From assembly GCA_965228095.1 (NCBI GenBank), contig OZ245793.1, forward strand, positions 3,563,516 through 3,627,515: a DNA stretch of 64,000 nucleotides, given 5' to 3'. The notes beneath the pieces are model-generated. The model made no database searches and was not told where the DNA came from. It worked only from the letters and a program-made list of their open reading frames with translations. Source of the stretch: Henriciella sp. Lineage in GTDB: Bacteria > Pseudomonadota > Alphaproteobacteria > Caulobacterales > Hyphomonadaceae. Position 1 is the stretch's first letter. Each line of letters opens with the position of its first letter. The translations under genes and the position numbers were made by a program. Below are positions 4,712 to 59,109 of the stretch, in pieces.

Positions 4712-5472
4712 TGGCTATTGCCTGGCCAAGTGGCATCCCGACCGCGTTCGTGAGCGAAACTTACGAACGATCGCCAGAAGACGTTGTAAAGCGATCCGAG
4801 GTCGCCGTTGGGCCACCGCTGCGTTTCCTGTGGGCTGCAAGCCGCGCGCAGAATGTCGTCGGCGAACTCAGTCTGTCTGAGGGTCAACTTGCAGTGTTCG
4901 AAGACTGGCGAGTGAACACGCTCGATTATGGCAATGAGGCGTTCGATTTGACCTTGTACGATCACGTATCGCCTAGAACTGTGACTGCACGTCTGCGTGG
5001 ATCACCGTCTGTTAGGGCAAAATCTGGATCTCGCCGCAGAATTCGACTGGAGATGCGAGTGGATCCACCAGAGCCGGCACCAGCTACTTTGTCAGCGCTC
5101 GCTGCGCTCCATAAAGCTGACGCGGCACCGTGGCCGGCAAGCGTGCCCGGGTGCCCGCGTGTGGCTGATTACGAAAAGACTGTGGCGAGCCAAGTCGCGC
5201 GACCGGATGATCGAAATTCACCGGGCGGCGTATTGGTGTCGCGGCTCGAGGGCGGTCAAGAGCGCGTTAGTCTCATACTCTCTGCGACCGAGCTCGAGGC
5301 CTTCGAGGCGTGGTTTGAAGGTGCCGCAGCGCTTGGTGTCCGAGATATCCTCTTCCCGGTACCGGGCGGAGTTCATACCGGCTGTTTCACGTCAGGCTAT
5401 GCCGTGAAGGGCGCTGGAGCGATCAATGGTTGGGGGGTTACGTTTGACCGCTATTTGGAGGCCCGCCCATGA
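4711..5472 (+). CDS. Distal tail / minor tail protein (two-repeat)
   Basis: Directly after tape measure; IAWPSGIP and APWPASVP internal duplication; paralog of 53310..54071. Confidence 0.55.
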   Translation: MAIAWPSGIPTAFVSETYERSPEDVVKRSEVAVGPPLRFLWAASRAQNVVGELSLSEGQLAVFEDWRVNTLDYGNEAFDLTLYDHVSPRTVTARLRGSPSVRAKSGSRRRIRLEMRVDPPEPAPATLSALAALHKADAAPWPASVPGCPRVADYEKTVASQVARPDDRNSPGGVLVSRLEGGQERVSLILSATELEAFEAWFEGAAALGVRDILFPVPGGVHTGCFTSGYAVKGAGAINGWGVTFDRYLEARP

Positions 5473-5942
5473 CCACGGCTCGAGGGGCGACCCGCATTGA
5501 CGTGTATCTCGCGACACTCGAGCACCCAGACCTTGCGCCGCTCACAGGGTTTGTGGATGGCGTCACGATCGATGGAAAGCTGCGCGTCGCCAATTGGAGG
5601 CACAATTTCATTTCTCGAACCTTCACGTTCGCGCCCGGTTTCTTCCAGGTCCAACAGCCCCGCGCCGGCGATCGCCGCGGCATCCTTCAGCTGACCATCG
5701 ATAACGTGGATCAGCGTCTCACCGATGTTGTGAACGCACTGACTGGGCCGGCGACGCTGAAGCTCGAGCGCGTCTATGCTCATTTGCCTGACACTGTCCG
5801 CAATCAGTGGACCCGCCTGGAGCTTAAACTGTTTACCGTGAACGATCGCGAATTAACCGGCAGTTTTGGGCCGCCCGCGACTGAGGGCCAGTTCATGGGG
5901 ATCCGGATCAACCCATCGGGTTATCCAGGAGCGTTTGAGTGA
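5469..5942 (+). CDS. Tail tip protein (DUF1833/gpL-like)
   Basis: LQLTIDNVDQ motif; position before NlpC/P60 gene. Confidence 0.5.
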   Translation: MTTARGATRIDVYLATLEHPDLAPLTGFVDGVTIDGKLRVANWRHNFISRTFTFAPGFFQVQQPRAGDRRGILQLTIDNVDQRLTDVVNALTGPATLKLERVYAHLPDTVRNQWTRLELKLFTVNDRELTGSFGPPATEGQFMGIRINPSGYPGAFE

Positions 5943-6343
5943 GCGAGCTGCGAGAGCGCCTATGGGCGTGGTGCAATGAAGTGCTCGGGCGCCCATACGA
6001 AAAGCAAACGTGGGATTGCTTTCAGTTGTTGCTTGAGGGTCAGAGTGTTGCGGGATGGCACCGCGCGTTTGAGCCAACTTATAGAGAGCAATCGGAGGAA
6101 GCGCCCGGCAAGACCATGCTCCGGAATTTCTCGCGAGGGTTTCGCCGTTTCAAGGAAATTGAAGAGCCACAGCTTGGCGCGGCAGTCTTGTTTCGAGATG
6201 AGCGGGTTCCAATCCATGTCGGGCTTTGGATGGCTCCCAACACTATGATTCACGTCAACACGACGACCGCTACCACCCTGGCAGAAATCGGCCCGGGAAC
6301 TGATTATCATTTCAATCTTGCAGGTTTCTATGTCCCAGCCTGA
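5939..6343 (+). CDS. NlpC/P60 tail assembly protein (gpK-like)
   Basis: GRPY, WDCFQL, HVGLW and IHV catalytic Cys/His motifs. Confidence 0.8.
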   Translation: MSELRERLWAWCNEVLGRPYEKQTWDCFQLLLEGQSVAGWHRAFEPTYREQSEEAPGKTMLRNFSRGFRRFKEIEEPQLGAAVLFRDERVPIHVGLWMAPNTMIHVNTTTATTLAEIGPGTDYHFNLAGFYVPA

Positions 6344-9300
6344 GATCATTGTCGTCGTCAAAGACGATCCATTCTCCGACCGCCCTCCCCGCCTTCTCAA
6401 GGCAAAGAGCGGCACACCAATTTCGGAACTGGTCGACATGGCTGGATTCGAACAGCTCGAGATCGATCACACGGAAGCCAGCATCAATGGTGAGGCGATC
6501 GACGCAGAGCTGTGGGCGGAAACTCCCGGGCAAGACCATGTGCAACTGGTCGTGCTCCCGCAGGGCGGCGGCGACGGCAACAAACTGTTACGCACGGTGT
6601 TGACGATCGCCGTTATTGTCGCTGCGTTTTACCTTGGACCAGAAGTGGCTGCATTCTTCGCTGCTGAAGGAACCAAGGCATTCGCGGCGATCTCCTATTT
6701 GACCACCGCTGTGATTACCACGGTCGGTCAACTTGCGATCAATTCAATCTTACCGCCGCCCACGTACGACTTTGGGGATCAGCCCGATCCTGTTTACTTC
6801 ATTGAGGGTCAGCGAAATCGACTGAACCCACTGCAACCAATCAATACGGTGCTCGGTCGCCACCGTATCGTCCCGAATTTGGGAGCTCGTCCCTACCCCG
6901 AGATCCGCGGCGACGACACCTATTACTACATGGTCGTCGAGCTCGGCCCGATCGACATCGAGGTTACCGATCGGCGCGTGGGCGACACACCGCTGGCTAA
7001 CATTGATGGCGTTGTTTATCAGAGCCGGTTGGTTCCAACCGACCCACACCCGACCATGGCGAGCCGTCAGGTGATCTCTGAAACGGTGGGCGCGACATTG
7101 TTGGTCTCGGATCCGGAGCTCCGCCGCACCGCATCTGACGTGATCGATTGCGATCTCATTTTTGCATTCCCGCAAGGCCTCGGGGGTACGAACAAGAAAG
7201 GCAATCCGACCAGTTTAACTGTCAACATTCAGGTGAGATATCGCGAAGTCATTAATCCTGGACCCGGTGAGACGTTCGGGGATTGGCGCTTCGCGTCTGC
7301 GCGCACCAATGCCTTGTATCCGGAGTTTCGCGGTTTCGAGAATATGTTGGCGCTTTCGGGTGGTGGCATCGGTGGGGATCCAAACTTCGGCACCTCCGCT
7401 TCATTCAGTTTTACCGAAGCGAAGCCGGCGCAGCCTTTTTTCCGGCAAGTTGGGTTCTCGTTCCCGAGCGAGGGCACCTATGAGGTTGAGGTGGAGCGCA
7501 TATCTGCGGATTCGACGGACGCGCGAGAATTCGATGATGTCACCTGGCAGACTATTCTTTCGAAACGCGATGAGCCGATCATCAATCGCGATGATGTGGC
7601 CTATGAAGTTTACCGCTTCAAAGGCACCGATGAAACAAGCGGCGCTATCGATGAGCTCAATATGGTTGTGGGGCGCTGGATGCCGGCATTCCCTGACGCT
7701 GTTTTGGATCAAGCAGACCTTAGCGGTGTCACTGCCGCCGATCTTAGCATCACGAAAGTCAGCTCAAATCCTTGGGAGCAATCTCTGTGGCTTAAGCGCA
7801 ATGGCTTCGGGGCCCGCCAACCGGTCACTGACGATGGATTCGATTGGCCGAGTTTTGCGGCCGCGGCGAAAGATGCTCGCGATCGCGGTCTGAAATTCGA
7901 CTACTACGTCAATCGCGATGTAAACGTTGATGACTTGGTCGACCTGGTCGCAAGATCTGGTGGTGAAGGGCGTGTTTATTCCTACAATAACATTCTGACA
8001 GCGGGCCTCGATCGCCCGATCGCTGCGCCAAGTCACGTCTTTCGTGATCAAACTGCCCGGAACGTCTCGACGGCCAAATCCTTTGCAGAGGAAGTTCACG
8101 CTTACATTGTGACGTTCAACGATGCGAACAATGGTTGGCGCACGCGCGAAGTGACGATTTATGTCGACGGATACGACAAGCAAACGGCGACAAAATTTGA
8201 GTCTATCCAAGTCCCGGGGAAAACAGACTGGGATGATCTGCACCGCGCTGTTGGTCAGCTTTATCGAAATTCTCGGCTTCAAAGTACGACCATGGATCTA
8301 GAGGTGCCGAAAGACAGCCTCGATAACTCATTGCGGCTGATGGGGCGTGTTTCGGTTGCGACTCGCGTGATCACTCAGGTTCAAGGCTCTGGCATCGTTC
8401 GTGGCATCACCGAAAGCGCCGGCGAAGTGACAGATGTGGAACTGGATCAGGAAATCGAGATGGGGCCCAGCTTCCCGGGCCTGGCAATCAAGTGGGTGAG
8501 TTTGGATGGTGATGGGCAGCAAGTCCTGTCTTCCCCTGCCCCACTAGATATTCCCGCCCAGGATGGGCGTGTGACATCGGTCACTTTGACAACGCCGGTG
8601 CCAACAGCATCCGGGCCGGCAGCCGGCAATGATTATATCATCGGGCCGATCGGAACCGATCTCTACGAAGGCTTGCTGCAGAATGCAGAGGATGCCGGCA
8701 GAGATTATGTTCGTCTCTTTTTGAAATCATATGCTGAAGCGCGGTTCGATGAGACTGGATATTCGATCCCGGCCTATGCCATTGAGCCTGTGCTCCCGTT
8801 TGGGTCCAGCCCGCCGTCTCCTGTTTTTGTCAGTGCTGAGGCCAGCAATTTCAAGATCACCGTGAATTTCACTGTGCCAGAGGGTTTCCCGCAACCGCTT
8901 CGCGAGATCCGAGTTTGGCGCGCCTATGCTGCGCCCGATGATGATCCGGATCCGAATGCGCTTTCCGTTTTTGAGCAGCTGCCATCACTTGGTCCTGAAA
9001 TTCGCCAATTGATTGACGCGCCTGGTCAAGTAGGTCAGCGGATCGTTTATCGATTCCAAACAGTATCGGTTCCCGGGCGTTCCAGTCCTATCATGCAGAC
9101 GCCGATTATTACGGTTGCAGACGCCTTGCCGTTCGCGAACAACTTCGCCGCGGTCGGCGCGACCGAAACCGGTTCCAATGGTGTCATCAATCCAGTGATC
9201 GAGGTCACCTGGGATCCAGATGATGATATCTCGATTCAAGAGGCAGTGATCGAGGCGCGCGTTGTCGCAAAAGATGCCGGCGACGTTCGACTTCCCGATG

Positions 9301-10259
9301 CGTCGCAGCCTGATTACACACCGGTTACAAATATCCCGGCGATAAAGGGGCGCTTTACGATCCGTGGTGTGCCGCCAGGCGTGGATATGGATGTTCAGAT
9401 GTTCTACCGCGGCCGCCGCGGTGAGATCGGCACCGCGTACGAAATCCGCGATGTGGCCGTCCCAGATGGTGCTGCCGGCACCACGGGAAGTGTCGATTGG
9501 GGAAACATCATCGGAACACCTTTAGAGCTTGTCGATGGGCGAGTCGGTGCCGGACTGAATGCGTCAGGTGATATTGCGCGCCCTATACCCGTCGCCACCG
9601 CGAATTCGTCAGGATTGCTTCGTTACACTGGCGGTGCGCTCTATACCGGTTCGCTTGATGCAGACAGAACGGCCGTAAACATCGCTGCTGGCTTTCTCAA
9701 TCAAGGTGATCTGGCGACAGAAGATGCGGCGTCCGATCGAGCCTATGCCAACTTCATTGTGGCGACGAGTGGCATCAGTTACTCCAATTCAGAGTTTAGC
9801 GTGGACGCGTCGGATCAGATATGCGGCGTCGATAATATCTATCGAGAAAAAGCGTTCGCTACGGTCAGCTGCGATGGTTCGCCTGTAGAGATTATGTTTA
9901 CCGCGTTCTTCGGCGAAGGCGCTCCCAATACATCTTCAGAAGCTCCAGAGTTGACCGTTTCCGCCCTCATTCGCCGCGTCGAGGGTGCGAAGATTGTATC
10001 GCAGGGCAGTCACGTGGCCGTACTGCGCGCAGACGGTGAATCTGGGACTAGTCGTTCATTCGGGGGCACATTCCGCGTTGTTGACGACGATCCGGGCGGA
10101 ACACCCGGGACCCCGGTTAATCGCACCTATCAGATTTTCCTCGCCACAACACGTACCAGCCCCAAACCGCCAGCGGATTTCGTTGCCATTCTCAATCCCA
10201 ATATTTGGTCCGGAATGAGACTGACCGTGCATCGGGAAAACGCTAACAACATCTCGTAA
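6330..10259 (+). CDS. Central tail tip / host-specificity protein (gpI-like N-terminus fused to gpJ-like)
   Basis: ~1309 aa; N-terminal ubiquitin-like segment ending VVLPQGGG, TM-like segment, PINTVLGRHRIVP motif, FN3-like C-terminal repeats. Confidence 0.85.
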   Translation: MSQPEIIVVVKDDPFSDRPPRLLKAKSGTPISELVDMAGFEQLEIDHTEASINGEAIDAELWAETPGQDHVQLVVLPQGGGDGNKLLRTVLTIAVIVAAFYLGPEVAAFFAAEGTKAFAAISYLTTAVITTVGQLAINSILPPPTYDFGDQPDPVYFIEGQRNRLNPLQPINTVLGRHRIVPNLGARPYPEIRGDDTYYYMVVELGPIDIEVTDRRVGDTPLANIDGVVYQSRLVPTDPHPTMASRQVISETVGATLLVSDPELRRTASDVIDCDLIFAFPQGLGGTNKKGNPTSLTVNIQVRYREVINPGPGETFGDWRFASARTNALYPEFRGFENMLALSGGGIGGDPNFGTSASFSFTEAKPAQPFFRQVGFSFPSEGTYEVEVERISADSTDAREFDDVTWQTILSKRDEPIINRDDVAYEVYRFKGTDETSGAIDELNMVVGRWMPAFPDAVLDQADLSGVTAADLSITKVSSNPWEQSLWLKRNGFGARQPVTDDGFDWPSFAAAAKDARDRGLKFDYYVNRDVNVDDLVDLVARSGGEGRVYSYNNILTAGLDRPIAAPSHVFRDQTARNVSTAKSFAEEVHAYIVTFNDANNGWRTREVTIYVDGYDKQTATKFESIQVPGKTDWDDLHRAVGQLYRNSRLQSTTMDLEVPKDSLDNSLRLMGRVSVATRVITQVQGSGIVRGITESAGEVTDVELDQEIEMGPSFPGLAIKWVSLDGDGQQVLSSPAPLDIPAQDGRVTSVTLTTPVPTASGPAAGNDYIIGPIGTDLYEGLLQNAEDAGRDYVRLFLKSYAEARFDETGYSIPAYAIEPVLPFGSSPPSPVFVSAEASNFKITVNFTVPEGFPQPLREIRVWRAYAAPDDDPDPNALSVFEQLPSLGPEIRQLIDAPGQVGQRIVYRFQTVSVPGRSSPIMQTPIITVADALPFANNFAAVGATETGSNGVINPVIEVTWDPDDDISIQEAVIEARVVAKDAGDVRLPDASQPDYTPVTNIPAIKGRFTIRGVPPGVDMDVQMFYRGRRGEIGTAYEIRDVAVPDGAAGTTGSVDWGNIIGTPLELVDGRVGAGLNASGDIARPIPVATANSSGLLRYTGGALYTGSLDADRTAVNIAAGFLNQGDLATEDAASDRAYANFIVATSGISYSNSEFSVDASDQICGVDNIYREKAFATVSCDGSPVEIMFTAFFGEGAPNTSSEAPELTVSALIRRVEGAKIVSQGSHVAVLRADGESGTSRSFGGTFRVVDDDPGGTPGTPVNRTYQIFLATTRTSPKPPADFVAILNPNIWSGMRLTVHRENANNIS

Positions 10260-10269
10260 CCACTGGAGA

Positions 10270-10512
10270 ATGAAGATGATTAGAGCTGCCCTCGCCGGGC
10301 TGGCATTGATGCTGCCTGGCTGTCAAACAATCAAAGTTCAGGGTGTCGAAATCGATCGGGAAACACAGTTCGTGGCTGCCGCGTTCGCTGTCGCCGGCGC
10401 TTTGGTAATTGCCCATCTGGCGGATGGCGATGATGAGCAGGAAAAGTGCACGCAATATGTGTCCGTCCCGCCAGGCAAAGATGCGCCATTCATGTGCGAA
10501 GATGAATGGTGA
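10270..10512 (+). CDS. Small lipoprotein
   Basis: Signal peptide with LALMLPGC lipobox; GGAG RBS; paralog 58863..59099. Confidence 0.65.
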   Translation: MKMIRAALAGLALMLPGCQTIKVQGVEIDRETQFVAAAFAVAGALVIAHLADGDDEQEKCTQYVSVPPGKDAPFMCEDEW

Positions 10513-10522
10513 GGCGAGTTCA

Positions 10523-10828
10523 ATGAAGCCCATGGAGATTGAAGAGCTCATGCCGATCCTCATAAAGGCGCGGCATACAGAGCTTTTAAATTCGCCGCCG
10601 CGCGCGATCGTGCTGACATATCGAAAACTGAAGTCGAAACAGACTCTCATGGCCGCTGAAAAGCGGCTTTTGTTTGAGTGCTGTTTGATGATCGAGATGT
10701 ACAATTTCAGCAACTCGGCCGGCGAAGCCAGCGAGGTTCGCACAGAGCTGCAGTCTCGCTTCAAGTCCTTCCAATTTCGTCTGAAACCAAAAGCGAAACC
10801 GAAGGCCAAACCGAAAGCAAAGAAATGA
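10523..10828 (+). CDS. Hypothetical protein with basic KPKA C-terminal repeats
   Basis: Conserved in both prophages (59110..59415); ATGA overlap with endolysin. Confidence 0.65.
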   Translation: MKPMEIEELMPILIKARHTELLNSPPRAIVLTYRKLKSKQTLMAAEKRLLFECCLMIEMYNFSNSAGEASEVRTELQSRFKSFQFRLKPKAKPKAKPKAKK

Positions 10829-11289
10829 CCAGTTATCGTATTGATCGCGCCGAGCGAGGTGCGCACAGCCAGTCCTGGGACATTCTAGGTGAAGGTGACA
10901 CGATCGGGCCTGAGCACCACACTCACGCATCCTGGGACCAATTGTGGCGTTGGCCGAACTTCAAGCCTGAAGAGCTGGCAAGCGAGTCCGATGGCATGTT
11001 GATGTTGTACGCGCCTGCGATCGATGCGCTTCAGGCGGTTCGAACGCATCTTGGCCAGCCACTGACCATCAATAGCGCTTACCGGTCGCCGGCGCATAAT
11101 CACAAGATCGGGGGTGCGAAGCGTTCTCGACATCTGGCTGGCGCTGCGTTTGACGTCAGCTGCCCGCCTGGATCGCAAGAGGTTCTGGCAAAGGTTGCGC
11201 GAAGCTTTGGTTTTAACGGCCTCATTTTCTATAACTCATTCGTTCACCTAGATTTCCGTGCTCGTAGATATGAACGGACACGCCGCTGA
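10825..11289 (+). CDS. Endolysin, peptidase M15A family
   Basis: INSAYRS..HN..IGGA..SRHL.G.AFD...FVHLD Zn-peptidase motifs. Confidence 0.85.
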   Translation: MTSYRIDRAERGAHSQSWDILGEGDTIGPEHHTHASWDQLWRWPNFKPEELASESDGMLMLYAPAIDALQAVRTHLGQPLTINSAYRSPAHNHKIGGAKRSRHLAGAAFDVSCPPGSQEVLAKVARSFGFNGLIFYNSFVHLDFRARRYERTRR

Positions 11290-11600
11290 TGGGTGAGCCT
11301 GTCGGGAAGTATCTCTATAAACTGGAGAATGAAGAGGAGGCCTACCTCCTTTTTTTATGCCCAGGTTGCAAGTGCACGCACCCATTCACCATTCGCCGAA
11401 CCGATCTCGCGCGCCCGTGTTGGACCTACAATGAGGATCCGGACGCCCCAACGTTCAGTCCGTCGCTCCTGGTCAATCAACACCATCCTCAATCACGCTG
11501 CCATCTCTTCGTGGAGCGCGGCCGAATTCGCTACCTGCAGGACTGTCATCATGACCTGCGGGGGCAAACGATAGACCTGCCGGCGTACCCGGCAGACTAA
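11289..11600 (+). CDS. DUF6527-like Cys/His protein
   Basis: FLCPGC..H, W..N.D...PTFSPSLLV, CH.FV..GRI.YL.DC.H pattern. Confidence 0.6.
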   Translation: MGEPVGKYLYKLENEEEAYLLFLCPGCKCTHPFTIRRTDLARPCWTYNEDPDAPTFSPSLLVNQHHPQSRCHLFVERGRIRYLQDCHHDLRGQTIDLPAYPAD

Positions 11601-11658
11601 ACAGGCGCGCCGGCTGCCTGCCCCAAACGCCGGTTCCCTCAAAACAAGGAAACTTACT

Positions 11659-11859
11659 ATGGAACCCATTATCCAAATGGTCGTGTCTGCTCTGACGCCT
11701 ATGGGCAAAGAGTTCGCGGAAAAGACCGGTCTCGATGCCGGCGAACATGTTCGAGATCTCGTAGCGGATTCAGAGAACACGCTCGATGACACCGCGGTCG
11801 AGGTGCTGGAAGTCTTTTTGAATTCCTTCATCCAGGGCTTGGGCGATCCCGCCGAGTAA
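11659..11859 (+). CDS. Small acidic hypothetical protein
   Basis: AAGGA RBS; paralog 60246..60446. Confidence 0.65.
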   Translation: MEPIIQMVVSALTPMGKEFAEKTGLDAGEHVRDLVADSENTLDDTAVEVLEVFLNSFIQGLGDPAE

Positions 11860-12090
11860 ATGGATAACGCCCTGATCTGGGGCGGTGTTCTGGTCGTCTT
11901 GTTGGGTGGCGCGCTCTACTTTGCGCGCAAATCCGGCAAGGCGTCTGAGCGGGCGTCCCGTCACGAGGCGAGAGCCAAAGACGAAAAGAAGAAATCCGAT
12001 GCGCTACAAGAAGCTAATGCCACTCCTGCTAATTCCGTTCGCGACCGGTTGCGTCGGTTGGCCCGGAAGCGAGGGGGTATGTCCGATTAG
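11860..12090 (+). CDS. Inner-membrane spanin (Rz-like)
   Basis: N-terminal TM helix then charged helical periplasmic part; overlaps lipoprotein gene. Confidence 0.7.
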   Translation: MDNALIWGGVLVVLLGGALYFARKSGKASERASRHEARAKDEKKKSDALQEANATPANSVRDRLRRLARKRGGMSD

Positions 12091-12202
12091 GCCCATCTAT
12101 AGTGAGGCTGACGTCGAGAACATGTCAGATGAGCTCGCCGAATACCTCCTGGCCGTGGAGCTTCAGGGCGAGAAAATGGGTTGCTGGGACCTGGAAGAAT
12201 AA
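11999..12202 (+). CDS. Outer-membrane spanin lipoprotein (Rz1-like), overlapping frame
   Basis: MRYKKLMPLLLIPFATGC lipobox in +1 frame starting inside the Rz-like gene; same in prophage B. Confidence 0.7.
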   Translation: MRYKKLMPLLLIPFATGCVGWPGSEGVCPIRPIYSEADVENMSDELAEYLLAVELQGEKMGCWDLEE

Positions 12203-12225
12203 ATCTAATCACACGGGGCTGGTGA

Positions 12226-12654
12226 ATGTTTCTATCGACCAAATTTATGCTGCACGGAACGCTGATCGTGTTGTCAGCGATCGCCGGAACCAGCGCGACA
12301 GTGGTGCCGGCAGCGACTTCGGTCGTTGGTCTGTCCGCGATGGTGATCGCCGCGGCCTGCGCCGGCTCGGCGTCCGCAATCCTGTTTCTGATTTTGGATC
12401 AGAAAGAACGTCCGCCCGAGCGAATTTTTCGCCGCGTCTTTTGGGTTGTGGCTGCCTTTGCGCTTGGCGCGGCCTTCGGACTGTTCGTAGGGCCTTCGAT
12501 TGCGAGTTCATCGCCGCTCGATCGAATTGCCGGCACCTATATCGGCGGCCTGGTGGGCTTCGGTGTCATCGGCGTTCTCGTAAGTCCGAAAACCATGAAG
12601 GCGCTTGGGGCCTGGCTCGTCGCGATATTGACCAAGCGCGGAGGTGGCTCATGA
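12226..12654 (+). CDS. Holin-like membrane protein
   Basis: 3-4 hydrophobic helices, basic C-terminus, lysis cluster. Confidence 0.55.
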   Translation: MFLSTKFMLHGTLIVLSAIAGTSATVVPAATSVVGLSAMVIAAACAGSASAILFLILDQKERPPERIFRRVFWVVAAFALGAAFGLFVGPSIASSSPLDRIAGTYIGGLVGFGVIGVLVSPKTMKALGAWLVAILTKRGGGS

Positions 12655-13007
12655 CCTATCTAATCGCGTTCCTGTGCCTGCTGCAGGCCGTTCTCGCCGT
12701 CATCATTATGTATTTCCTTACACAAGTGCCGTCACTGACGCCGCGATGGCCCTGGAAACATCCCTTCAGTCCGGTCTTGGAACGATTGATGAGCACCGGA
12801 ATCAACATGGCCTGGCTGGGCTATATGATCCTGATGATCTATATCGCATCGGCGTTAGCGCTCGGGGAGCTTGATGCTGAAACACTCCTGGAAATGTTGG
12901 CGATGGGTAATCCAGGACTTTTCCTGGCCTTCAGCTTTGGCTCGGTAATCCTAGGTCATTTTGCTTGGTTCGCCTGGCGCGCGGATCATCAGAGGTTCGG
13001 TCCTTAG
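12651..13007 (+). CDS. Membrane protein (holin/antiholin-like)
   Basis: 3 TM helices; ATGA overlap; paralog 61239..61595. Confidence 0.55.
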   Translation: MTYLIAFLCLLQAVLAVIIMYFLTQVPSLTPRWPWKHPFSPVLERLMSTGINMAWLGYMILMIYIASALALGELDAETLLEMLAMGNPGLFLAFSFGSVILGHFAWFAWRADHQRFGP

Positions 13008-13037
13008 AGTCGACTCCCTCCATCTTAGATTTTGTTC

Positions 13038-13066
13038 GCCCCGCCGTTTGGCGGGGCTTTTTCTTT
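13038..13066 (+). terminator. Intrinsic terminator ending late operon
   Basis: GCCCCGCC-gttt-GGCGGGGC followed by TTTTTCTTT; equivalent at 61624. Confidence 0.85.
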
Positions 13067-13148
13067 GCCTTCATTTCTGTTTCATTGGGACGGACTGTTT
13101 TTTTAACCCAACTGTTCAGGTGAAAACTGACGTGGAACTGCATCGAGA

Positions 13149-13916
13149 ATGAACCAAGGCGAACAGAACCAATTCGAAATCATGGCCGCATCTATCAAAG
13201 CGATAGCGGCCGCGACGGATCCCGCGCAGATTCTCGGCATCACCAAACATTTCCTGAGAGATTTCACATTTGGCGTAGAGCACACGGCCCACGATCGCGG
13301 CATGCTTGGCATTTTCATGTTGAAATCAGATGGGCTCGAGGAAGAGAAACGCATTTCGGTTTCGAACTGGACTCCGGCATTCGTCACGGAACGCGCGATG
13401 TTGAATGGCTACACCCACGATCCGTCTGTCATCATGGTCCAACAGGCTGCAAAGCCGTTCACCTGGGCCCAAGGTATGGAAGGCGCTGACAGGGCCTCTC
13501 TCGCGATCGCTGACCTGTGCCAGGAGCACACTGGACAGCGCGATGGCCTCACTTTCCCGATCGCGGATGTGAACATGCTGAAAGGGGCCGCCACGGTTGG
13601 ATTTGATCTGGCGCCCACGGACTTCAGTCCAATCCAGATCGGAATGATGCACCACGTCTTTATCGCCGCATATGCCCGCCTTTACCGCCTGCAGGGGCCG
13701 TTCCCAGAAGATATCTCGCCGAGCTATTCCCCGCGGCAAAGAGAAATCATTCGTCTACTGGCGCTGGGAAAGACGGTGGCGGACGCCGCGAGGATCATGG
13801 GATGCAGCGTGGCCACTGCCCAGGACCACCTGGCGCAGGCCAAACAGAAAGTCGGTGCGCGCACCAATCCGGAACTGATCGCAAAGTCGATCGATAAAAA
13901 TGTGGTGCTGCGCTGA
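13149..13916 (+). CDS. luxR: LuxR-family quorum-sensing regulator (autoinducer-binding domain plus HTH)
   Basis: 255 aa; HDP, PFTW and DGLTFP ligand-domain motifs; SPRQREIIRLLALGKT LuxR HTH. Confidence 0.9.
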   Translation: MNQGEQNQFEIMAASIKAIAAATDPAQILGITKHFLRDFTFGVEHTAHDRGMLGIFMLKSDGLEEEKRISVSNWTPAFVTERAMLNGYTHDPSVIMVQQAAKPFTWAQGMEGADRASLAIADLCQEHTGQRDGLTFPIADVNMLKGAATVGFDLAPTDFSPIQIGMMHHVFIAAYARLYRLQGPFPEDISPSYSPRQREIIRLLALGKTVADAARIMGCSVATAQDHLAQAKQKVGARTNPELIAKSIDKNVVLR

Positions 13917-13936
13917 TACCCTAAAAATTTAGGGTA
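13917..13936. promoter_or_regulatory. lux-box-like 20-bp inverted repeat upstream of luxI
   Basis: TACCCTAAA-AA-TTTAGGGTA with perfect 9-bp arms, centred ~55 bp before luxI ATG. Confidence 0.7.
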
Positions 13937-13980
13937 CCGCGGAAACTGGGAACCCGGACACTCCAATCAAAGGAGTGTTC

Positions 13981-14658
13981 ATGGCCGAGTTGATTTTACC
14001 CGAAAACCGTCACCTCTATCTGCATGTCCTCGATGCGATGCACGTCGCTCGTTTTGAGCTGTTTTTCGATGGCCTCGGATGGGATCCGGTCGAATGTGGC
14101 CTGGATCGGCCGCAAGACAAATATGACAAAGACCAGTTCGATAAAGACGATACGGTGTACATCATTGAGCGCATGCCTGAGACGGGTGAGGTGGTTGGTT
14201 TCTGCCGGATCAATCCGACCACGTCACCGCACATGATGGATCAGGTTTTCGCAGACTATTGCGAATACGATGGTGTTCCGATCGGGGCGAGCATTCATGA
14301 GGTGTCCCGGCTCGGTTATGATTATCGCGTTCTGAAGCGTAACCGCGACGACTGGAAAGAGGTCCGCTTTCGAATGACCAGCGCGATCTCAGAGTACTGT
14401 CTCTTGCGCGGCATCGACCAGGTCACCTATTGCGTTCATGATCATATCTTCAATGCCATCCAACAAGATACGTGGGGTGCCATCCCCCTTGGAAATCAGA
14501 GATATGATAAACGCCTGGATCAGTTCTATCAGGCGGGAATCTCAGATATTACACGAGAGGGCTTGGAGAGATGCCGCGCCGAACTACGTCGACCTGAAGA
14601 TGACGTTTTGACTTATTTCGGCCCGGTCGCGGCCGCACAGTTGAAGGAGGCGGCGTGA
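13981..14658 (+). CDS. luxI: Acyl-homoserine-lactone synthase (LuxI family)
   Basis: RFELF, LGW, DKDQFD, CRINPT, HEVSR match conserved LuxI residues; AAGGAG RBS. Confidence 0.9.
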   Translation: MAELILPENRHLYLHVLDAMHVARFELFFDGLGWDPVECGLDRPQDKYDKDQFDKDDTVYIIERMPETGEVVGFCRINPTTSPHMMDQVFADYCEYDGVPIGASIHEVSRLGYDYRVLKRNRDDWKEVRFRMTSAISEYCLLRGIDQVTYCVHDHIFNAIQQDTWGAIPLGNQRYDKRLDQFYQAGISDITREGLERCRAELRRPEDDVLTYFGPVAAAQLKEAA

Positions 14659-14837
14659 TGGGAAAAGCAGCGCGAAAAGTCGATCCCCTTGAAAATATTG
14701 CTGAGTTGATTGATTGGTTGACCGATCGCGCAACGGACGAAACAGGTGCGAGTGATGCGCTTCGCAAAAAGCTGGCAGAGGCAAAAGAGCAGGCCAAACG
14801 CGACCTGGACACACATCGGTCAGCGAGAGGTTCCTAG
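14658..14837 (+). CDS. Small protein (59 aa) coupled to luxI; smORF-A
   Basis: TGATG overlap with luxI stop; homologous to 61857..62054 (PL..I.EL, AT...GASD.LR, QA..DL). Confidence 0.75.
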   Translation: MGKAARKVDPLENIAELIDWLTDRATDETGASDALRKKLAEAKEQAKRDLDTHRSARGS

Positions 14838-15182
14838 ATCCAATACGGTTAGAACTGCATCCAGGGTTTCGATATCTGCGTTGCGCAGCATCTCTTTCAC
14901 TCGATCCACTCGCAGCTGCCTCGAGGCTGCGTCTCCGACGCTGTCACTCCCGAACGTTTCGGCTTCAGGAAAAAAGTAGCCGGCTTTGACCTCGAGCACA
15001 TCACAGATTTGATCGAGCACGTTGGCGGGAACCGGTCGATCTCCGCGCTCATAGTTGCTAAGGGTCGCGCGTTGGATATCAAGCTTTGCCGCGAGGCGCT
15101 GCTGGCTCAACCGTCTTTCATCGCGCGCTGCGCGTATCGCCTGCCCAATTCGGCGGTCAATTTTTTTCCGTTTAGTCGGCAT
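14820..15182 (-). CDS. XRE-family HTH repressor
   Basis: IRAARDERRLSQQRLAAKLDIQRATLSNYERG HTH_3 motif; paralog 61998..62366. Confidence 0.9.
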   Translation of the reverse strand: MPTKRKKIDRRIGQAIRAARDERRLSQQRLAAKLDIQRATLSNYERGDRPVPANVLDQICDVLEVKAGYFFPEAETFGSDSVGDAASRQLRVDRVKEMLRNADIETLDAVLTVLDLGTSR

Positions 15183-15218
15183 GGTTGATATTATAGGTAT
15201 CTCGCGCGCTGGTGGAAA
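15183..15218 (-). promoter_or_regulatory. Sigma70-type promoter giving a probable leaderless XRE mRNA
   Basis: Minus strand TTTCCA-N17-TATAAT-N7-ATG; same geometry in prophage B. Confidence 0.6.
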
Positions 15219-15447
15219 GTTTACAGAATCGAACATTTTACTACCCCTGCAACGGTGCGTTTCAGGAAACGTGTTTACTGCCCTTAAAACGACCTAATCG
15301 TATGTTGACTCACGCAACACCGATGACAAGTTTGTTTCAAAAATATAACAGCAGTCATCTGCAACTGAACTAAGCCGACAATACACGAAGGCACTTATTG
15401 CGGTGCTTTCTTATAGTACAGAATGTATAATATGGTGGGGTCTCAAA

Positions 15448-15927: not shown

Positions 15928-16542
15928 CTAGTTCTTCCGCAGCTCTTCATTCGGTGTCTCGGCCTGGGCTGCGAATTTCTCAATGATTTCAGCGCATCGC
16001 AGGCCGCCACCTGAGGCAGACAGCTGGTCGGCAATCTCGCGTCGGCGTTCCGGATCCGTTCGCTTGTTCGGATCAAAGGCAATCGCATCTGCGTCCTGGA
16101 CATCGAGCGCGCGAAGCTCCGGATGTGTGCGCAGCAGCTCGGCCGCCTTGCGACTGATATAAAGCCGGGGAGGATTGAAGCGCGTTTGCTCGTCGCGCAG
16201 TACATCTGTCATCATGATTTCGCTATCCCGCAATCCGGAGAAAGCGAGCGCGATATTGATCAGCGTTGCGTCATAGAGTTTGCGGTTTCTCGGATTGCCC
16301 ATCCGGCCTTCAGGGGTATGAAGCCCGCGCCTGGCGAGCGCCGCTTTCAAGTCTATGAGTGACTTCTTGCCGAAATTTGGCTGCGACAACCACCAGGCTT
16401 CAGTTTGCGCCGCAGCCTCTTCCCATGTCCAAACGCCGGCTATCCGAAGTGCATTTATTGTTCTGGCCTGCAGCTCATCTCCAAATTTGTCGCGATATCT
16501 CTCAATCTCGGCATTGTATTCGGATAGTGATTGATAGGTCAT
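15928..16542 (-). CDS. Protein with RNA polymerase alpha-CTD-like domain
   Basis: ELQARTINALRIAGV...WLSQPNFGKKSLIDLKAALARRGL resembles RpoA CTD (R..N.L, PNFGKKSL). Confidence 0.7.
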   Translation of the reverse strand: MTYQSLSEYNAEIERYRDKFGDELQARTINALRIAGVWTWEEAAAQTEAWWLSQPNFGKKSLIDLKAALARRGLHTPEGRMGNPRNRKLYDATLINIALAFSGLRDSEIMMTDVLRDEQTRFNPPRLYISRKAAELLRTHPELRALDVQDADAIAFDPNKRTDPERRREIADQLSASGGGLRCAEIIEKFAAQAETPNEELRKN

Positions 16543-16997: not shown

Positions 16998-17518
16998 CTC
17001 GCGCGCGCAATACGTTTTGCCTGCTCCAGGGTTGTCACACCAATCACCTGAGACGTCGTACCAACCAATTCCGTAACAGGTCGACTGCTGCCCTCATTGT
17101 AGGCGTCGATCGCCGCGTGAATGTCGTCGACGATCTCTTCGTGCGTTTGGCCCTGCTCAATGAACGACCGTGCAAATCCGGGTATGGCCTCCAGATCGCC
17201 CGGCCCGAGCATTGGGTCAGCAACCACGACATCACCGTCTCGGGTAAAATCGCCGGCGCGAGGTTTGTATAATGGGCTGCTGCTGGAGATGTTTTGCGGG
17301 TCAAAATCGCCTGGCAGGAACCCGATCAATTCCCCCGCTTGTTCAACCGGCAACATCCAGGAACTGTCTAGTTCGTCCGGAAATCCAAGGTTTGCGAGCG
17401 CCTGGCGCAAGCCAAGCTGCGAGATCATTTCGACCGGGACTCGGATGTGTTCTCCGCCCGAGAGTTTGAAGGATCTGCGATCGTTCATGCGATCTTCGAA
17501 ATTGGTAATCTCTTTCAT
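16964..17518 (-). CDS. Hypothetical protein
   Basis: Start MKEITNF overlaps integrase stop. Confidence 0.55.
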   Translation of the reverse strand: MKEITNFEDRMNDRRSFKLSGGEHIRVPVEMISQLGLRQALANLGFPDELDSSWMLPVEQAGELIGFLPGDFDPQNISSSSPLYKPRAGDFTRDGDVVVADPMLGPGDLEAIPGFARSFIEQGQTHEEIVDDIHAAIDAYNEGSSRPVTELVGTTSQVIGVTTLEQAKRIARARWNPKNQEPLG

Positions 17519-18612
17519 TTTACGGCTCTGAGATTCGGTTGTTGAGTTGGGGCTTGTTTTTGGAGCGCTGGATTTACAAAGCTCCAACCGTGATCGCGAA
17601 CGCGCTGCGCGAGGTCGGCCGGCGCGAGCTTGGTGTAGCGCAGCGCCATATCGGGTTTGCGCCAGCCGCCATGTTCCATCAACCAGGTCAGATTGTGACC
17701 GGTGGCGGCATAATACCAGGTCGCCCAGGTGTGGCGCAGAACGTGCGGGGTGACGGCATTCTCGCCTTCACTGTCAAAGCCGGCCAGTTCGCGCGCCTTG
17801 TTGAAGATGCCGGCAAACTGCCCGCCGCCATGTTCGCGGATCTTGTATTCAATGCCCCGCGGTGTGCGAAACAATCCGCCGGCGTCCGGGCAATTGCTGG
17901 TGAGCGCCGGAAAGGCGCGGGAGGCCTCCACGGGGATCCATCGTGCATCGCCATTTTTCGACGGCCCAATATAGAGCTGACGTGTCGGTGAGTTGATATT
18001 GTCGACCTGGGCTTTGATCAGCTCGCGGGTGCGGCAGCCAGTCCCGAGCAAGGTCAGAACCAGGCGCTCACAGCCATAGCCGATCGCGCGCTTGTCGCTG
18101 TCGCGATCAACCATTTGGGCGCATTCGATCAGGCGTTCAGCTTCTTCAGGCGTCAGCCACCGGATCCGCTGATTGTCGACAAGCTTTTTGCGCGGGCCGC
18201 CGCGGCGCTCATAGTTCAACACGGCGTTCGTCGGCGTCACTACCTGGCGATGTTGAGTTTGAGGTTTGGCATTCGGGTAAAGTGCCCAGGCCATGGCCTC
18301 GATAACCTGTGGGGTGACCTCTTCGCACAGCGCGTCCGGGCCCAAATGCAGAAGGATCGGTTTCAGATATCGACCGCCCCGCGGAATGGCTTTCATGTAC
18401 TTAATCGCGGCTTCAGCGAAGGTAGTTTGCGGGCCGTACATGGCCTCGTGATCGAGCTTTTCGATCAGCTCAATTAATTTCCGGTACGCGAGTGCTCTGT
18501 TGCACGTTCCAGTGCTTGTTTCCACACGTCTTCCCGTGGCTTCGTGTGTCCCTCGGATGTAATAGTTTGCGTACTTCGCGCGGTCACCCGGCGGTTTGAG
18601 TTCAAGCGGCAT
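17515..18612 (-). CDS. int: Tyrosine integrase
   Basis: TGCRTRE, HVLRHTWATW and GGW..PDMALRY catalytic motifs. Confidence 0.93.
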   Translation of the reverse strand: MPLELKPPGDRAKYANYYIRGTHEATGRRVETSTGTCNRALAYRKLIELIEKLDHEAMYGPQTTFAEAAIKYMKAIPRGGRYLKPILLHLGPDALCEEVTPQVIEAMAWALYPNAKPQTQHRQVVTPTNAVLNYERRGGPRKKLVDNQRIRWLTPEEAERLIECAQMVDRDSDKRAIGYGCERLVLTLLGTGCRTRELIKAQVDNINSPTRQLYIGPSKNGDARWIPVEASRAFPALTSNCPDAGGLFRTPRGIEYKIREHGGGQFAGIFNKARELAGFDSEGENAVTPHVLRHTWATWYYAATGHNLTWLMEHGGWRKPDMALRYTKLAPADLAQRVRDHGWSFVNPALQKQAPTQQPNLRAVK

Positions 18613-18797
18613 GGTTCTTCCTCCAGGACCTCGAGCAGCTTGTTTATGTGGTGTGGCTGCAGGTATCGAGATCGGCCTTTTCTTAAGCATGACCGGGGAG
18701 TCCGGTCTAGGATGTCACGAATGTAACGCAGACCGAACCCCTGGAATTCCGGAAGGGCCAGAAGTTCGGTGTCGTGGATGGATGCGCCGCGGGTCAT
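18474..18797 (-). CDS. Probable excisionase-like protein overlapping int start
   Basis: ATGA-coupled to upstream gene, overlaps int 5' end, basic HTH-like core. Confidence 0.45.
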   Translation of the reverse strand: MTRGASIHDTELLALPEFQGFGLRYIRDILDRTPRSCLRKGRSRYLQPHHINKLLEVLEEEPCRLNSNRRVTARSTQTITSEGHTKPREDVWKQALERATEHSRTGN

Positions 18798-50278: not shown

Positions 50279-50632
50279 CTAATTGAGTGTCGCGCCTGCC
50301 GCGAGGTGGGCGATCCGTGCGCAGAAGGATTTCCGCGCGATAACGGGTTTGTGTGCCCGATGCGCGCTAACTCACCAACAACTCGCGAAGGTGCCTTGGC
50401 TTGGACGCTGGCCAATCAGCCGGCGCTTTGGACGCAGATGGCGGTGGCTGGGATCTCTCAGTCCCTGCTCATCACACAAGGGTTGCGCATCGATGAGGCT
50501 CTGAACCTCGCACTCTCGCAGCATCCAGACATCAACCAACAATATTTGATCATCTGCCTGCAGGCTATCGAGGCTGCGCGGTTGGAGGTCGAAGCGCGCA
50601 TGCGTGCCCAAAAATCGCAGGAGGGTTCATAG
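50237..50632 (+). CDS. gpT-like extension (read in -1 frame)
   Basis: KALSRRAEWQWGDGLIECRACREVGDPCAEG continues into ORF 50306..50632. Confidence 0.8.
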   Translation, partial: KALSRRAEWQWGDGLIECRACREVGDPCAEGFPRDNGFVCPMRANSPTTREGALAWTLANQPALWTQMAVAGISQSLLITQGLRIDEALNLALSQHPDINQQYLIICLQAIEAARLEVEARMRAQKSQEGS

Positions 50633-54071: not shown

Positions 54072-54541
54072 CCACCGCTCGCGGAGCTACTCATATCGAT
54101 GTGTTTCTCGCCACGCTCGAACATCCGGACATTGCCGCGCTCACCGGTTTCGTGGACGGCGTGACGCTTGACGGAAAGCTGCGTGTTGCGAACTGGCGGC
54201 ATAATTTCACTTCGCGCGGTGATGTGTTTGCGCCTGGTTTCCTGCGAGTAAAACCGCCGCGTGCCGGAGATCGCCGCGGGATCCTTCAGCTGGCTATCGA
54301 CAACGTAGATGAGCGCGTGAAAGACGTGGTCAAAGCGCTCACAGGAAAGGCGACTTTGGTACTGGAGCAGGTTTATGCTCACGATCCGGATACAGTTCGA
54401 AATCAGTGGACGCGCCTCGAGTTAAAACTGTTCGAAACTGATGCTCGATTTCTCACCGGAAGTTTTGGTCCACCGCCTACCGAAGGGCGGTTCATGGGCA
54501 TCACAATCAATGCCGCTGATTTTCCGGGTGCGTTCGGTTGA
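54068..54541 (+). CDS. Tail tip protein (DUF1833/gpL-like)
   Basis: Paralog of 5469..5942. Confidence 0.5.
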   Translation: MTTARGATHIDVFLATLEHPDIAALTGFVDGVTLDGKLRVANWRHNFTSRGDVFAPGFLRVKPPRAGDRRGILQLAIDNVDERVKDVVKALTGKATLVLEQVYAHDPDTVRNQWTRLELKLFETDARFLTGSFGPPPTEGRFMGITINAADFPGAFG

Positions 54542-58846: not shown

Positions 58847-58862
58847 TCACTGGAGAAATAGG

Positions 58863-59099: not shown

Positions 59100-59109
59100 G
59101 GTGAAGCGC

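What the first reader, a model, noticed from the sequence alone, without database searches (positions are those of the whole stretch)
13917..13983. lux-box-like palindrome plus RBS-sequestering hairpin in the 64-bp luxR-luxI spacer
Seen: TACCCTAAA-AA-TTTAGGGTA starts immediately after the luxR stop and is centred ~55 bp before the luxI ATG. Downstream, GGACACTCC-aatcaaa-GGAGTGTTC can form a 9-bp stem covering the Shine-Dalgarno. Established: lux/tra boxes are 18-20-bp dyads near -42. Inference: a positive-feedback loop with a translational brake, consistent with a working threshold switch rather than a decayed cargo.
Basis: partly seen in the sequence, partly recalled or inferred. Interest (0 to 1): 0.65.

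Follow-up and report, generated by a model that had tools for sequence, protein, structure and literature searches.

The report
Phage quorum-sensing promoter with fold-back hairpin
The 64-base gap between a prophage's signal-receptor gene (luxR) and signal-synthase gene (luxI) holds the receptor's docking site and a weak promoter, and transcription probably starts inside the hairpin, so the hairpin would silence only stray read-through transcripts rather than brake the feedback loop.

Summary
Both features exist at the stated coordinates: the dyad at 13917-13936, and a 9-pair hairpin (13956-13964 with 13972-13980) whose 3' arm holds the GGAG ribosome site just before the luxI ATG at 13981.

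The cassette lies in a prophage, between the lysis genes and an XRE repressor. Ten close relatives and 24 more distant luxR-luxI tandems also carry a dyad early in the spacer. In the 11 close loci, four dyad types match four LuxR recognition-helix types without exception. Two of those loci were checked only after the rule had been stated.

An automated test put a NANNNT hexamer (GACACT here, 13957-13962) 30-31.5 nt past the dyad centre in 26 of 35 spacers. That is the classic lux-box geometry, with the box at -42.5. It predicts a start near A13969, in the hairpin loop. Four relatives without a ribosome site have their start codon 0-1 nt from the predicted start, which fits leaderless mRNA.

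My reading is that the hairpin masks the ribosome site only in read-through RNA from luxR, as in IS10 fold-back inhibition. No start site or binding data exist. Covariation in the stem is weak.

This scan has noted ordinary lux boxes in other genomes. Verdict: a new variant of a known kind, of moderate interest.

The parts
13038..13067 (+). Intrinsic terminator of the upstream late/lysis unit. It implies that luxR has its own promoter in 13068-13148.
   Evidence: Stem of 8 G-C pairs followed by a T run. Similar terminators lie upstream of luxR in L016, L017 and L023.
13149..13916 (+). luxR (255 aa): an AHL-type receptor with a GerE helix-turn-helix. Its recognition helix is of class A (CSVATAQDH).
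   Evidence: Pfam PF03472, PF00196. Alignment A1. C-terminal comparison.
13917..13936 (.). Predicted LuxR operator (lux-box equivalent). The core is ACCCT-N8-AGGGT (13918-13935), centred at 13926.5.
13935..13938 (+). TACC. T and A at +9/+10 from the dyad centre are invariant in all 11 close loci across four box classes. The left flank is not symmetric to this. It may be the promoter-proximal edge of the site or a contact in the -35 region.
   Evidence: information content 2.0 and 1.6 bits.
13957..13962 (+). Predicted weak -10 hexamer GACACT of the LuxR-dependent promoter P_luxI. It lies inside the 5' arm of the hairpin.
   Evidence: Fixed 30.5-31.5 nt from the dyad centre in 11 of 11 close loci, while its distance to the ATG varies. 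An automated test gave 26 of 35 loci.
13968..13971 (+). Predicted transcription start, about A13969, 7 nt after the hexamer. This puts the dyad centre at -42.5. It lies in the hairpin loop. Inferred, not mapped.
   Evidence: the bimodal predicted leader lengths agree with presence or absence of an SD.
13956..13980 (+). Fold-back hairpin: 5' arm 13956-13964, loop 13965-13971, 3' arm 13972-13980 containing SD GGAG (13972-13975).
13981..14658 (+). luxI (225 aa), AHL synthase. It is the only luxI found in the genome.
   Evidence: Pfam PF00765. Own-genome search. N-terminus MAELILP invariant in 11 relatives.
14658..14837 (+). Small ORF (59 aa). Its ATG overlaps the luxI stop (TGATG). It has its own SD, AAGGAGG, at 14643-14650. 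It is probably the second gene of the P_luxI unit.
   Evidence: A 49-60 aa ORF follows luxI in all nine relatives whose contigs show full gene calls downstream. A homologue without luxRI lies in the sister prophage at 61857-62054.
14820..15236 (-). Convergent XRE/cI-type HTH repressor gene. Its 3' end overlaps the small ORF.
   Evidence: Pfam HTH_3/HTH_31 and PHROG repressor families. Same synteny in L016-L018, L020, L021/L022, L024 and L028; the gene at that position has no Pfam hit in L023 and L019 has no convergent HTH gene.

Best explanation
The spacer is a compact LuxR-dependent promoter of the classic lux-box (class II) type, and a fold-back RNA hairpin is built into it.

1. The 20-bp dyad right after the luxR stop is the operator of the adjacent phage LuxR (probability about 0.85).
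2. GACACT at 13957-13962 is its weak -10 element. Transcription of luxI and the small ORF starts near A13969, which puts the dyad at -42.5 and leaves a 12-nt leader with a free GGAG (about 0.65).
3. The 5' arm of the hairpin lies upstream of that start. The hairpin can therefore form only in RNA that reads through from the luxR promoter, since no terminator separates the genes. In that RNA it buries the ribosome site. LuxI is then made from LuxR/AHL-activated transcripts and not from constitutive luxR read-through (about 0.5).

This is the logic of IS10 fold-back inhibition, applied to a quorum-sensing autoinduction loop on a prophage. The sequence features, their conservation and the geometry are shown here. 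LuxR binding, the start site and any effect on translation are inferred.
For: Prophage context. Tail fibre J, M15 endolysin, XRE repressor and integrase flank the cassette. Most related contigs show the same tail or lysis genes upstream of the cassette.

Operator.
- All 11 close loci carry a dyad at the luxR stop. Its sequence falls into four classes.
- The classes match four recognition-helix classes exactly: A, CSV[AST]TA with ACCCY-N8-AGGGT; B, RRTAK with CTGTCC-N4-GGCCAG, a canonical CTG-N10-CAG box; C, NVRMQ with TATC-N6-GATAAT; D, ENTAK with CTACC-N6-GGTAG.
- L026 and L027 were examined after the rule had been stated, and both fitted it.
- As RNA, the class C dyads fold at only -1.1 to -4.1 kcal/mol. 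None of the close loci has a T run after the dyad.

Promoter geometry.
- GANANT lies 30.5-31.5 nt from the dyad centre in 11 of 11 close loci, while its distance to the ATG varies from 7 to 21 nt.
- With the dyad centre chosen purely by symmetry, NANNNT peaks at +30 to +31.5 in 26 of 35 tandem spacers across the order. Most other bins hold 0-4, with one bin of 7.
- Predicted leader lengths are bimodal. They are 0-1 nt in four loci, all of which lack an SD. They are 11-25 nt in 25 loci, all of which have an SD.
- No consensus sigma-70 promoter and no terminator lies in the spacer.

Hairpin.
- It is present in 10 of 11 close loci, and the predicted start lies in the loop or between the arms.
- The stems differ in sequence in L018, L019, L020 and L023 and in L010, L009 and L007.
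- Opening the ribosome site costs 10-17 kcal/mol in read-through RNA and 0.6-9.4 in the predicted P_luxI RNA. In 9 of 11 loci the read-through cost exceeds nearly all controls with a shuffled upstream part.
Against: - There is no experimental start site. The RNA runs under the same species label do not hold this prophage.
- GACACT matches TATAAT at only 3 of 6 positions.
- Formal covariation in the seven alignable hairpins is weak. There is one compensatory pair, and shuffles reach the observed score in 204-227 of 500 trials. The inner stem could be conserved simply because it is a -10 element plus an SD.
- The occlusion ranks only 4th of 23 in the window.
- In the wider clade the occlusion is inconsistent, ranging from 5 to 18 kcal/mol.
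- L024 has no hairpin. The leaderless relatives keep hairpins that cannot be masking an SD.
- The small ORF has its own strong SD, so the hairpin would not directly block its translation.
- Read-through from luxR is assumed, not shown.
Confidence: 0.55

Rival explanations
1. The LuxR-activated mRNA starts upstream of 13956 and carries the whole hairpin, which damps LuxI translation and sharpens the threshold of the feedback loop.
For: The hairpin is stable, at -13.8 to -14.8 kcal/mol, and covers the SD. A non-conserved GAAACT at 13942-13947 could serve as a -10 and would give a start near 13954.
Against: A start upstream of 13956 puts the dyad centre at -29 or closer. GAAACT at that offset is not conserved, whereas the hexamer at +31 is. 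In the relatives without an SD, the start codon lies 0-1 nt from the start predicted from the +31 hexamer.
Confidence: 0.15
2. The hairpin is incidental. The complementarity is a by-product of two independently constrained elements, the -10 region GACACTCC and the SD region GGAGTG, and has no regulatory role.
For: Pairs -4 to -9 are nearly invariant and coincide with the hexamer and the SD. Covariation statistics are not significant. Occlusion is not extreme for this genome and is inconsistent in the wider clade.
Against: Stems of unrelated sequence end just before the start codon in L018, L020, L023, L019, L010, L007 and L009. The outer pairs show G-C/A-U and G-C/C-G exchanges. In 9 of 11 loci the read-through opening cost exceeds nearly all shuffled-upstream controls.
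Confidence: 0.2
3. The inverted repeat at 13956-13980 acts at the DNA level. It would be the operator of a second regulator, such as the neighbouring XRE protein or one of the two host LuxR solos, which sits on the -10 and start region and represses P_luxI.
For: It overlaps the predicted -10 and start. In Roseobacter prophages a host LuxR represses a phage quorum-sensing promoter (10.64898/2026.07.02.736140, abstract, read; section heading listed). The host here encodes two further Autoind_bind proteins.
Against: The spacing between arms varies among relatives (4, 7, 8, 9, about 20 nt) and the arm sequences differ. The repeat keeps its position relative to the start codon, not relative to the promoter. 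The window copy pairs through a G-U, which is a mismatch in DNA.
Confidence: 0.1
4. The dyad is an RNA element, either a 3' stabiliser or a weak terminator of luxR mRNA, or it is a LuxR repressor site of the EsaR type. It would not be an activator site.
For: It starts at the first base after the luxR stop and folds at -9.4 kcal/mol. In the distant relative L007 an equivalent dyad is followed by a run of T's, like a terminator.
Against: No close locus has a T run. The class C dyads are almost unstructured as RNA. The central bases are palindromic, as in a DNA site, in L017, L018, L024 and L003. The dyad class tracks the DNA-recognition helix. The fixed distance to a -10-like hexamer with no -35 is typical of activation.
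Confidence: 0.08

Closest known systems
Vibrio fischeri lux box / luxI promoter, and the TraR tra boxes (class II-type LuxR activation)
   Same: A 18-20-bp dyad next to its luxR gene. It is centred about 42.5 nt upstream of the inferred start. There is a weak -10 and no recognisable -35, and the promoter drives the AHL synthase, giving autoinduction. The class B relatives carry the canonical CTG-N10-CAG. The -42.5 position in V. fischeri is from my own knowledge (Egland and Greenberg, 1999).
   Different: The window's half-sites are ACCCT/AGGGT, not CTG/CAG. The box abuts the luxR stop codon in a tandem layout with a 64-nt spacer. The system is phage-borne. The family has split into at least four operator/recognition-helix specificity classes while the ligand domain stays about 75% identical.
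IS10/Tn10 fold-back inhibition (Davis, Simons and Kleckner, Cell 1985; cited in PMC13181058) and SD sequestration in IS200 tnpA (PMC4513863)
   Same: One arm of a hairpin lies upstream of the gene's own start site and the other covers the ribosome site. Only transcripts entering from outside are translationally silenced.
   Different: Here the 'outside' transcription would come from the circuit's own receptor gene. The protected gene is an AHL synthase followed by a small ORF, not a transposase. Nothing has been tested experimentally.
Phage quorum-sensing switches: hth / xre-luxR-luxI modules of Roseobacter prophages (Bunsick et al. 2026, bioRxiv 10.64898/2026.07.02.736140) and XRE-LuxR plus smORF modules of Aeromonas phages (Silpe et al. 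2023, PMC10432266)
   Same: A prophage-encoded LuxR, here with a LuxI as well, sits next to an XRE-type regulator and a small ORF, close to the lysogeny genes.
   Different: The gene order here is luxR-luxI-smORF converging on the XRE gene. There is no upstream xre in the operon, and the small ORF is co-directional, not divergent. The hosts belong to a different order from the Roseobacter clade, to which the preprint found its phage modules confined. The sections of those two papers that I read or searched did not mention a spacer hairpin; I did not read them in full.
SD-masking RNA thermometers in quorum-sensing genes, such as P. aeruginosa lasI and rhlAB-rhlR (Grosso-Becerra et al. 2014; my own knowledge)
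   Same: A hairpin occludes the ribosome site of an AHL synthase mRNA.
   Different: There is no ROSE or fourU motif and no Rfam match. The stem has 9 pairs at about -14 kcal/mol, which is unlikely to melt at marine temperatures, and it is predicted to be absent from the main transcript.

Membership tests
lux-box-type LuxR-dependent (class II) promoter | Dyad-symmetric site of 18-20 bp | tested here: met
   Arms of 9 + 9 bp with a 2-bp centre at 13917-13936. Dyads lie at the same place in 11 of 11 close loci and early in the spacer in most distant ones.
lux-box-type LuxR-dependent (class II) promoter | A cognate LuxR-family protein (AHL-binding domain plus GerE HTH) is encoded nearby, and its DNA-reading residues track the site | tested here: met
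   Pfam PF03472 + PF00196. Four helix classes match four box classes, including two loci checked after the rule was stated.
lux-box-type LuxR-dependent (class II) promoter | Site centred near -42.5 from the transcription start, overlapping -35, with a -10 but a poor -35 | tested here: inconclusive
   The -10-like hexamer lies at +30.5/31.5 from the centre in 26 of 35 loci. No consensus promoter is present. The relatives that lack an SD fit the predicted +1. The start site itself is not mapped, because no RNA run holds the locus.
lux-box-type LuxR-dependent (class II) promoter | Canonical CTG-N10-CAG core sequence | tested here: not met
   The window has ACCCT-N8-AGGGT. Only the class B relatives (L018, L024) have CTG-N10-CAG. 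This sequence core is typical of the family but is not required for function.
lux-box-type LuxR-dependent (class II) promoter | AHL-dependent binding of LuxR and activation of the promoter | not testable with these tools
   Needs EMSA or footprinting and reporter assays.
Fold-back inhibition of read-through transcripts (IS10 type) | The 3' arm covers the SD or start codon, and the 5' arm lies upstream of the gene's own start site | tested here: inconclusive
   The 3' arm covers GGAG up to position -1. The 5' arm lies upstream of the predicted start in all 10 loci with a hairpin, but that start is inferred.
Fold-back inhibition of read-through transcripts (IS10 type) | Transcription enters from upstream | tested here: inconclusive
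   No terminator lies between luxR and luxI. The co-transcript has not been observed.
Conserved regulatory RNA hairpin | Compensatory base changes that preserve pairing | tested here: inconclusive
   One compensatory pair among 9. Shuffle controls are not exceeded. Stems of different sequence that cannot be aligned recur at the same place.
Intrinsic terminator (for the dyad) | G+C-rich stem followed by a U tract | tested here: not met
   The 10 nt after the dyad hold one T. The terminator scan finds none there. Only the distant L007 has a T run.
Known Rfam cis-regulatory RNA or RNA thermometer | Match to a curated covariance model | tested here: not met
   No hit in 13917-13983 at E up to 1.
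hth / xre-luxR-luxI prophage module (Bunsick et al. 2026) | xre is the first gene of the luxR-luxI operon, with a divergent hth gene upstream | tested here: not met
   A terminator and a non-coding stretch precede luxR. The XRE gene lies downstream and converges on the cassette. The module is described.

The most novel reading that the evidence does not exclude
A family of prophage quorum-sensing cassettes (luxR-luxI-smORF) uses a promoter-embedded fold-back switch. LuxI, and through transcriptional polarity the small ORF, would then be made only from LuxR/AHL-initiated transcripts. Relatives reach the same logic in a second way, with a leaderless luxI mRNA that starts exactly at the ATG. In parallel, the operator and the recognition helix have diversified into at least four orthogonal classes while the ligand domain stays conserved. 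This would be an immunity-group-like arrangement: related phages could share a signal while keeping their promoters private.
Probability: 0.35. Interest if true: 0.7.

Novelty: new variant of a known kind. Interest (0 to 1): 0.55.

Why it matters
Phage-encoded LuxI/LuxR circuits have only recently been shown to steer lysis-lysogeny decisions, and so far only in Roseobacter prophages with a different gene order. This spacer gives a concrete, testable wiring diagram for a second type of module. It names an operator, a -10 element, a predicted start site and an RNA device that would uncouple synthase production from receptor transcription.

If the fold-back reading holds, it shows how a tandem luxR-luxI layout with no terminator can still give tight, all-or-none autoinduction. 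The four matched operator/helix classes would also be a natural set of orthogonal LuxR-promoter pairs. That set is useful for studying how DNA-binding specificity evolves and for building circuits.

If the reading fails, what remains is an ordinary lux box with a structured leader.

Tried and rejected
- Extra LuxR boxes. Searches of the window and the genome with the exact dyad and with the relaxed class A core ACCCY-N8-RGGGT found only this site plus one other site at chance level. No wider regulon is visible.
- More relatives. Exact-pattern scans of genome, viral and metagenome contig collections gave nothing new beyond L016. Relatives came from the protein database and from searches of genomes in the same order.
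- RNA-seq for start-site mapping. Runs that hold the locus are of unknown or DNA type. The RNA runs with the same species label hold none of it.
- Rfam. No family matches in the spacer.
- Consensus promoter scan. None in the spacer, as expected for an activator-dependent promoter.
- Formal covariation on the alignable hairpins. Not significant, and reported as such.
- Mean unpaired probability over -14 to +3. It did not discriminate and was replaced by opening energies.
- Dyad as a terminator or RNA stabiliser. Rejected for the close family.
- RNA thermometer and CsrA-site readings. Considered and set aside: there is no motif, the GGA lies in the stem rather than a loop, and the stem is too stable.

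Full report
OBSERVATION

The luxR stop (TGA, 13914-13916) is followed at once by TACCCTAAA-AA-TTTAGGGTA (13917-13936). Further on, GGACACTCC (13956-13964), the loop AATCAAA and GGAGTGTTC (13972-13980) form a 9-pair stem with one G-U. The 3' arm carries GGAG and ends one base before the luxI ATG at 13981. The spacer is 64 nt, and the dyad centre lies 54.5 nt before the ATG. Pfam confirms a LuxR-type receptor (Autoind_bind + GerE) and an AHL synthase.

The spacer folds with z = -4.0. A perfect repeat of this size is expected about 1.3 times per 64 kb by chance and is seen at two places. The case for the dyad therefore rests on where it lies and on its conservation, not on the palindrome itself. 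It is the only copy in the 3.7-Mb genome.

CONTEXT

The cassette lies in a prophage.
- Upstream are a tail fibre J homologue (6318-10259), an M15 endolysin (10678-11289) and a strong terminator (13038-13067).
- Downstream are a 59-aa ORF whose ATG overlaps the luxI stop, a convergent XRE/cI-type repressor (14820-15236, minus strand) and an integrase (17515-18690, minus strand).
- This luxI is the only one in the genome. The host has two further LuxR-type genes.
- A second, related prophage in the window has the small ORF and the XRE gene but no luxRI.

RELATIVES

A search of the protein database found 12 LuxI proteins at 57-77% identity. I fetched the contigs of eleven. Ten of them cover the luxR-luxI spacer, and on those luxR lies directly upstream of luxI. 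Where the contig reaches downstream, luxI is followed by a 49-60 aa ORF, and in most cases by a convergent HTH repressor, with phage tail, lysis or integrase genes nearby. Searches of genomes in the same genus and order added 24 more distant luxR-luxI tandems at 27-52% LuxI identity.

THE DYAD IS THE LuxR OPERATOR

Every close locus has a dyad at the luxR stop, but the sequence differs. There are four types:
- A: ACCCY-N8-AGGGT (window, L016, L017, L021, L026)
- B: CTGTCC-N4-GGCCAG, a canonical CTG-N10-CAG lux box (L018, L024)
- C: TATC-N6-GATAAT (L019, L020, L027)
- D: CTACC-N6-GGTAG (L023)

The LuxR proteins are about 75% identical overall. Their most variable stretch is the recognition helix, and it falls into four matching types: CSV[AST]TA, RRTAK, NVRMQ and ENTAK. 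L026 and L027 were fetched after the rule had been stated, and both obeyed it.

Read as RNA, the class C dyads are nearly unstructured (-1.1 to -4.1 kcal/mol), and no close locus has a T run after the dyad. A DNA-protein site therefore explains the data better than a terminator or an mRNA stabiliser does. The classes are clades, so this amounts to about four independent observations, not eleven.

THE PROMOTER GEOMETRY

A hexamer GANANT (GACACT in the window, 13957-13962) starts 30.5-31.5 nt after the dyad centre in all 11 close loci. The sequence in between is unrelated from locus to locus, and the distance to the ATG varies from 7 to 21 nt.

In an automated test on 35 tandem spacers, the dyad centre was chosen only by best symmetry. 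NANNNT then starts at +30 to +31.5 in 26 loci, while most other offset bins hold 0-4 and one holds 7.

A -10 hexamer at -12 to -7 puts the dyad centre at -42.5 or -43.5. That is the classic lux-box position (my own knowledge of the V. fischeri luxI promoter). No consensus sigma-70 promoter is present, which is usual for an activator-dependent promoter.

There is an independent check. If the start is taken as 7 nt after the hexamer, the predicted leaders are bimodal. They are 0-1 nt in four loci (L018, L024, L003, L005), which are exactly the loci without a Shine-Dalgarno sequence. They are 11-25 nt in 25 loci, all of which have one. The conserved N-terminus MAELILP fixes the start codons.

For the window this predicts a start at about A13969 and the leader AAAGGAGTGTTC.

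WHAT THE HAIRPIN DOES

The predicted start lies in the hairpin loop, and the -10 hexamer is part of the 5' arm. The same holds in the 10 of 11 close loci that have a hairpin. The LuxR-activated mRNA should therefore lack the 5' arm, and the hairpin can form only in RNA that arrives from upstream.

No terminator separates luxR from luxI, so such read-through RNA is plausible. Opening the ribosome site costs 10-17 kcal/mol in read-through RNA and 0.6-9.4 kcal/mol in the predicted short RNA. In 9 of 11 loci the read-through cost exceeds nearly all controls in which the upstream part was shuffled.

This is the logic of IS10 fold-back inhibition (Davis, Simons and Kleckner 1985, cited in PMC13181058; compare IS200). 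I infer that it keeps LuxI from being made off constitutive receptor transcription. If untranslated luxI RNA is prone to Rho termination, it would also limit the small ORF. Autoinduction would then depend strictly on LuxR plus AHL.

The leaderless relatives would reach the same end by another route, because an internal AUG without an SD is poorly used in read-through RNA.

CAVEATS

- The start site, LuxR binding and read-through are all inferred.
- GACACT is a weak match to a -10 consensus.
- In the seven alignable hairpins, only one pair shows a compensatory change, and shuffles match the observed scores. The inner stem may be conserved simply because it is a -10 element plus an SD.
- Support for selection on the structure comes from unrelated stems that end at the start codon in other loci. 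Those cannot be aligned.
- The window's occlusion ranks 4th of 23, and in the wider clade occlusion is inconsistent.
- L024 has no hairpin. The leaderless loci keep hairpins around the -10 whose role this model does not fully explain.
- The small ORF has its own strong SD (14643-14650).

The lux-box reading is supported. The reading of the hairpin as a translational brake is not compatible with a box at -42. The verdict is partly supported.

COMPARISON WITH WHAT IS KNOWN

Lux boxes in luxR-luxI spacers are ordinary, and this scan has noted several on other DNA.

Phage LuxR and LuxI systems are known in two forms. One is the XRE-LuxR plus smORF module of Aeromonas phages (PMC10432266). The other is the hth / xre-luxR-luxI module, which its authors reported as confined to Roseobacter prophages (10.64898/2026.07.02.736140). 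The module here has a different gene order and lies in a different bacterial order.

The sections of those two papers that I read or searched did not mention a spacer hairpin; I did not read them in full. A full-text search for lux box, hairpin, Shine-Dalgarno and read-through found nothing relevant.

I class the finding as a new variant of a known kind and score its interest at 0.55.

Noticed in passing
window 50632-62456 compared with 2033-15236: Two related prophages lie in tandem, with parallel tail modules of 892, 253, 157, 134 and about 1310 aa. The second has the late terminator, a homologous small ORF (61857-62054) and a convergent XRE gene (61998-62456), but no luxR-luxI. The cassette therefore looks like an insertion or a deletion between the terminator and the small ORF.
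   Followed up: partly
G000:C1:3159583-3160020 and 3284553-3284981 (outside the window): The host genome encodes two further LuxR-type (Autoind_bind) proteins, and the prophage copy is its only luxI. The phage may therefore supply the signal for the host's LuxR solos.
   Followed up: partly
L018, L024, L003, L005 (spacers upstream of luxI): Four relatives lack any Shine-Dalgarno sequence, and their start codon lies 7-8 nt after the conserved -10-like hexamer. This predicts leaderless luxI mRNAs. No predicted leader of intermediate length (2-10 nt) occurs among 29 loci.
   Followed up: yes
window 13935-13938 and the equivalent positions in 10 close loci: T and A at +9/+10 from the dyad centre are invariant across all four box classes, while the mirror positions on the left are not. 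This is an asymmetric element at the promoter-proximal edge of the box.
   Followed up: partly
window 15928-16542 (-): A 204-aa phage protein has a weak Pfam match to the C-terminal domain of the RNA polymerase alpha subunit (E = 1.7e-5). It lies two genes from the quorum-sensing cassette. Activators of the LuxR type commonly contact alpha-CTD.
   Followed up: no
window 63505-63526: This is the only other perfect palindrome with 9-bp arms in the window: ATTTAATGT-AGTT-ACATTAAAT. It lies in a short gap near the right end.
   Followed up: no
L007 (G056:C13), luxR-luxI spacer: In a distant relative from another family, the equivalent dyad (TACCCCCTC-AAAA-GAGGGGGTA) is followed by TCTTTTTT, so it looks like an intrinsic terminator. 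An SD-covering hairpin (CAACCTC/GAGGTTG) is present there too.
   Followed up: partly
window 14643-14660: The small ORF's ATG overlaps the luxI stop (TGATG). It is preceded by a strong SD, AAGGAGG, inside the end of luxI, so its translation need not depend on translation of luxI.
   Followed up: no
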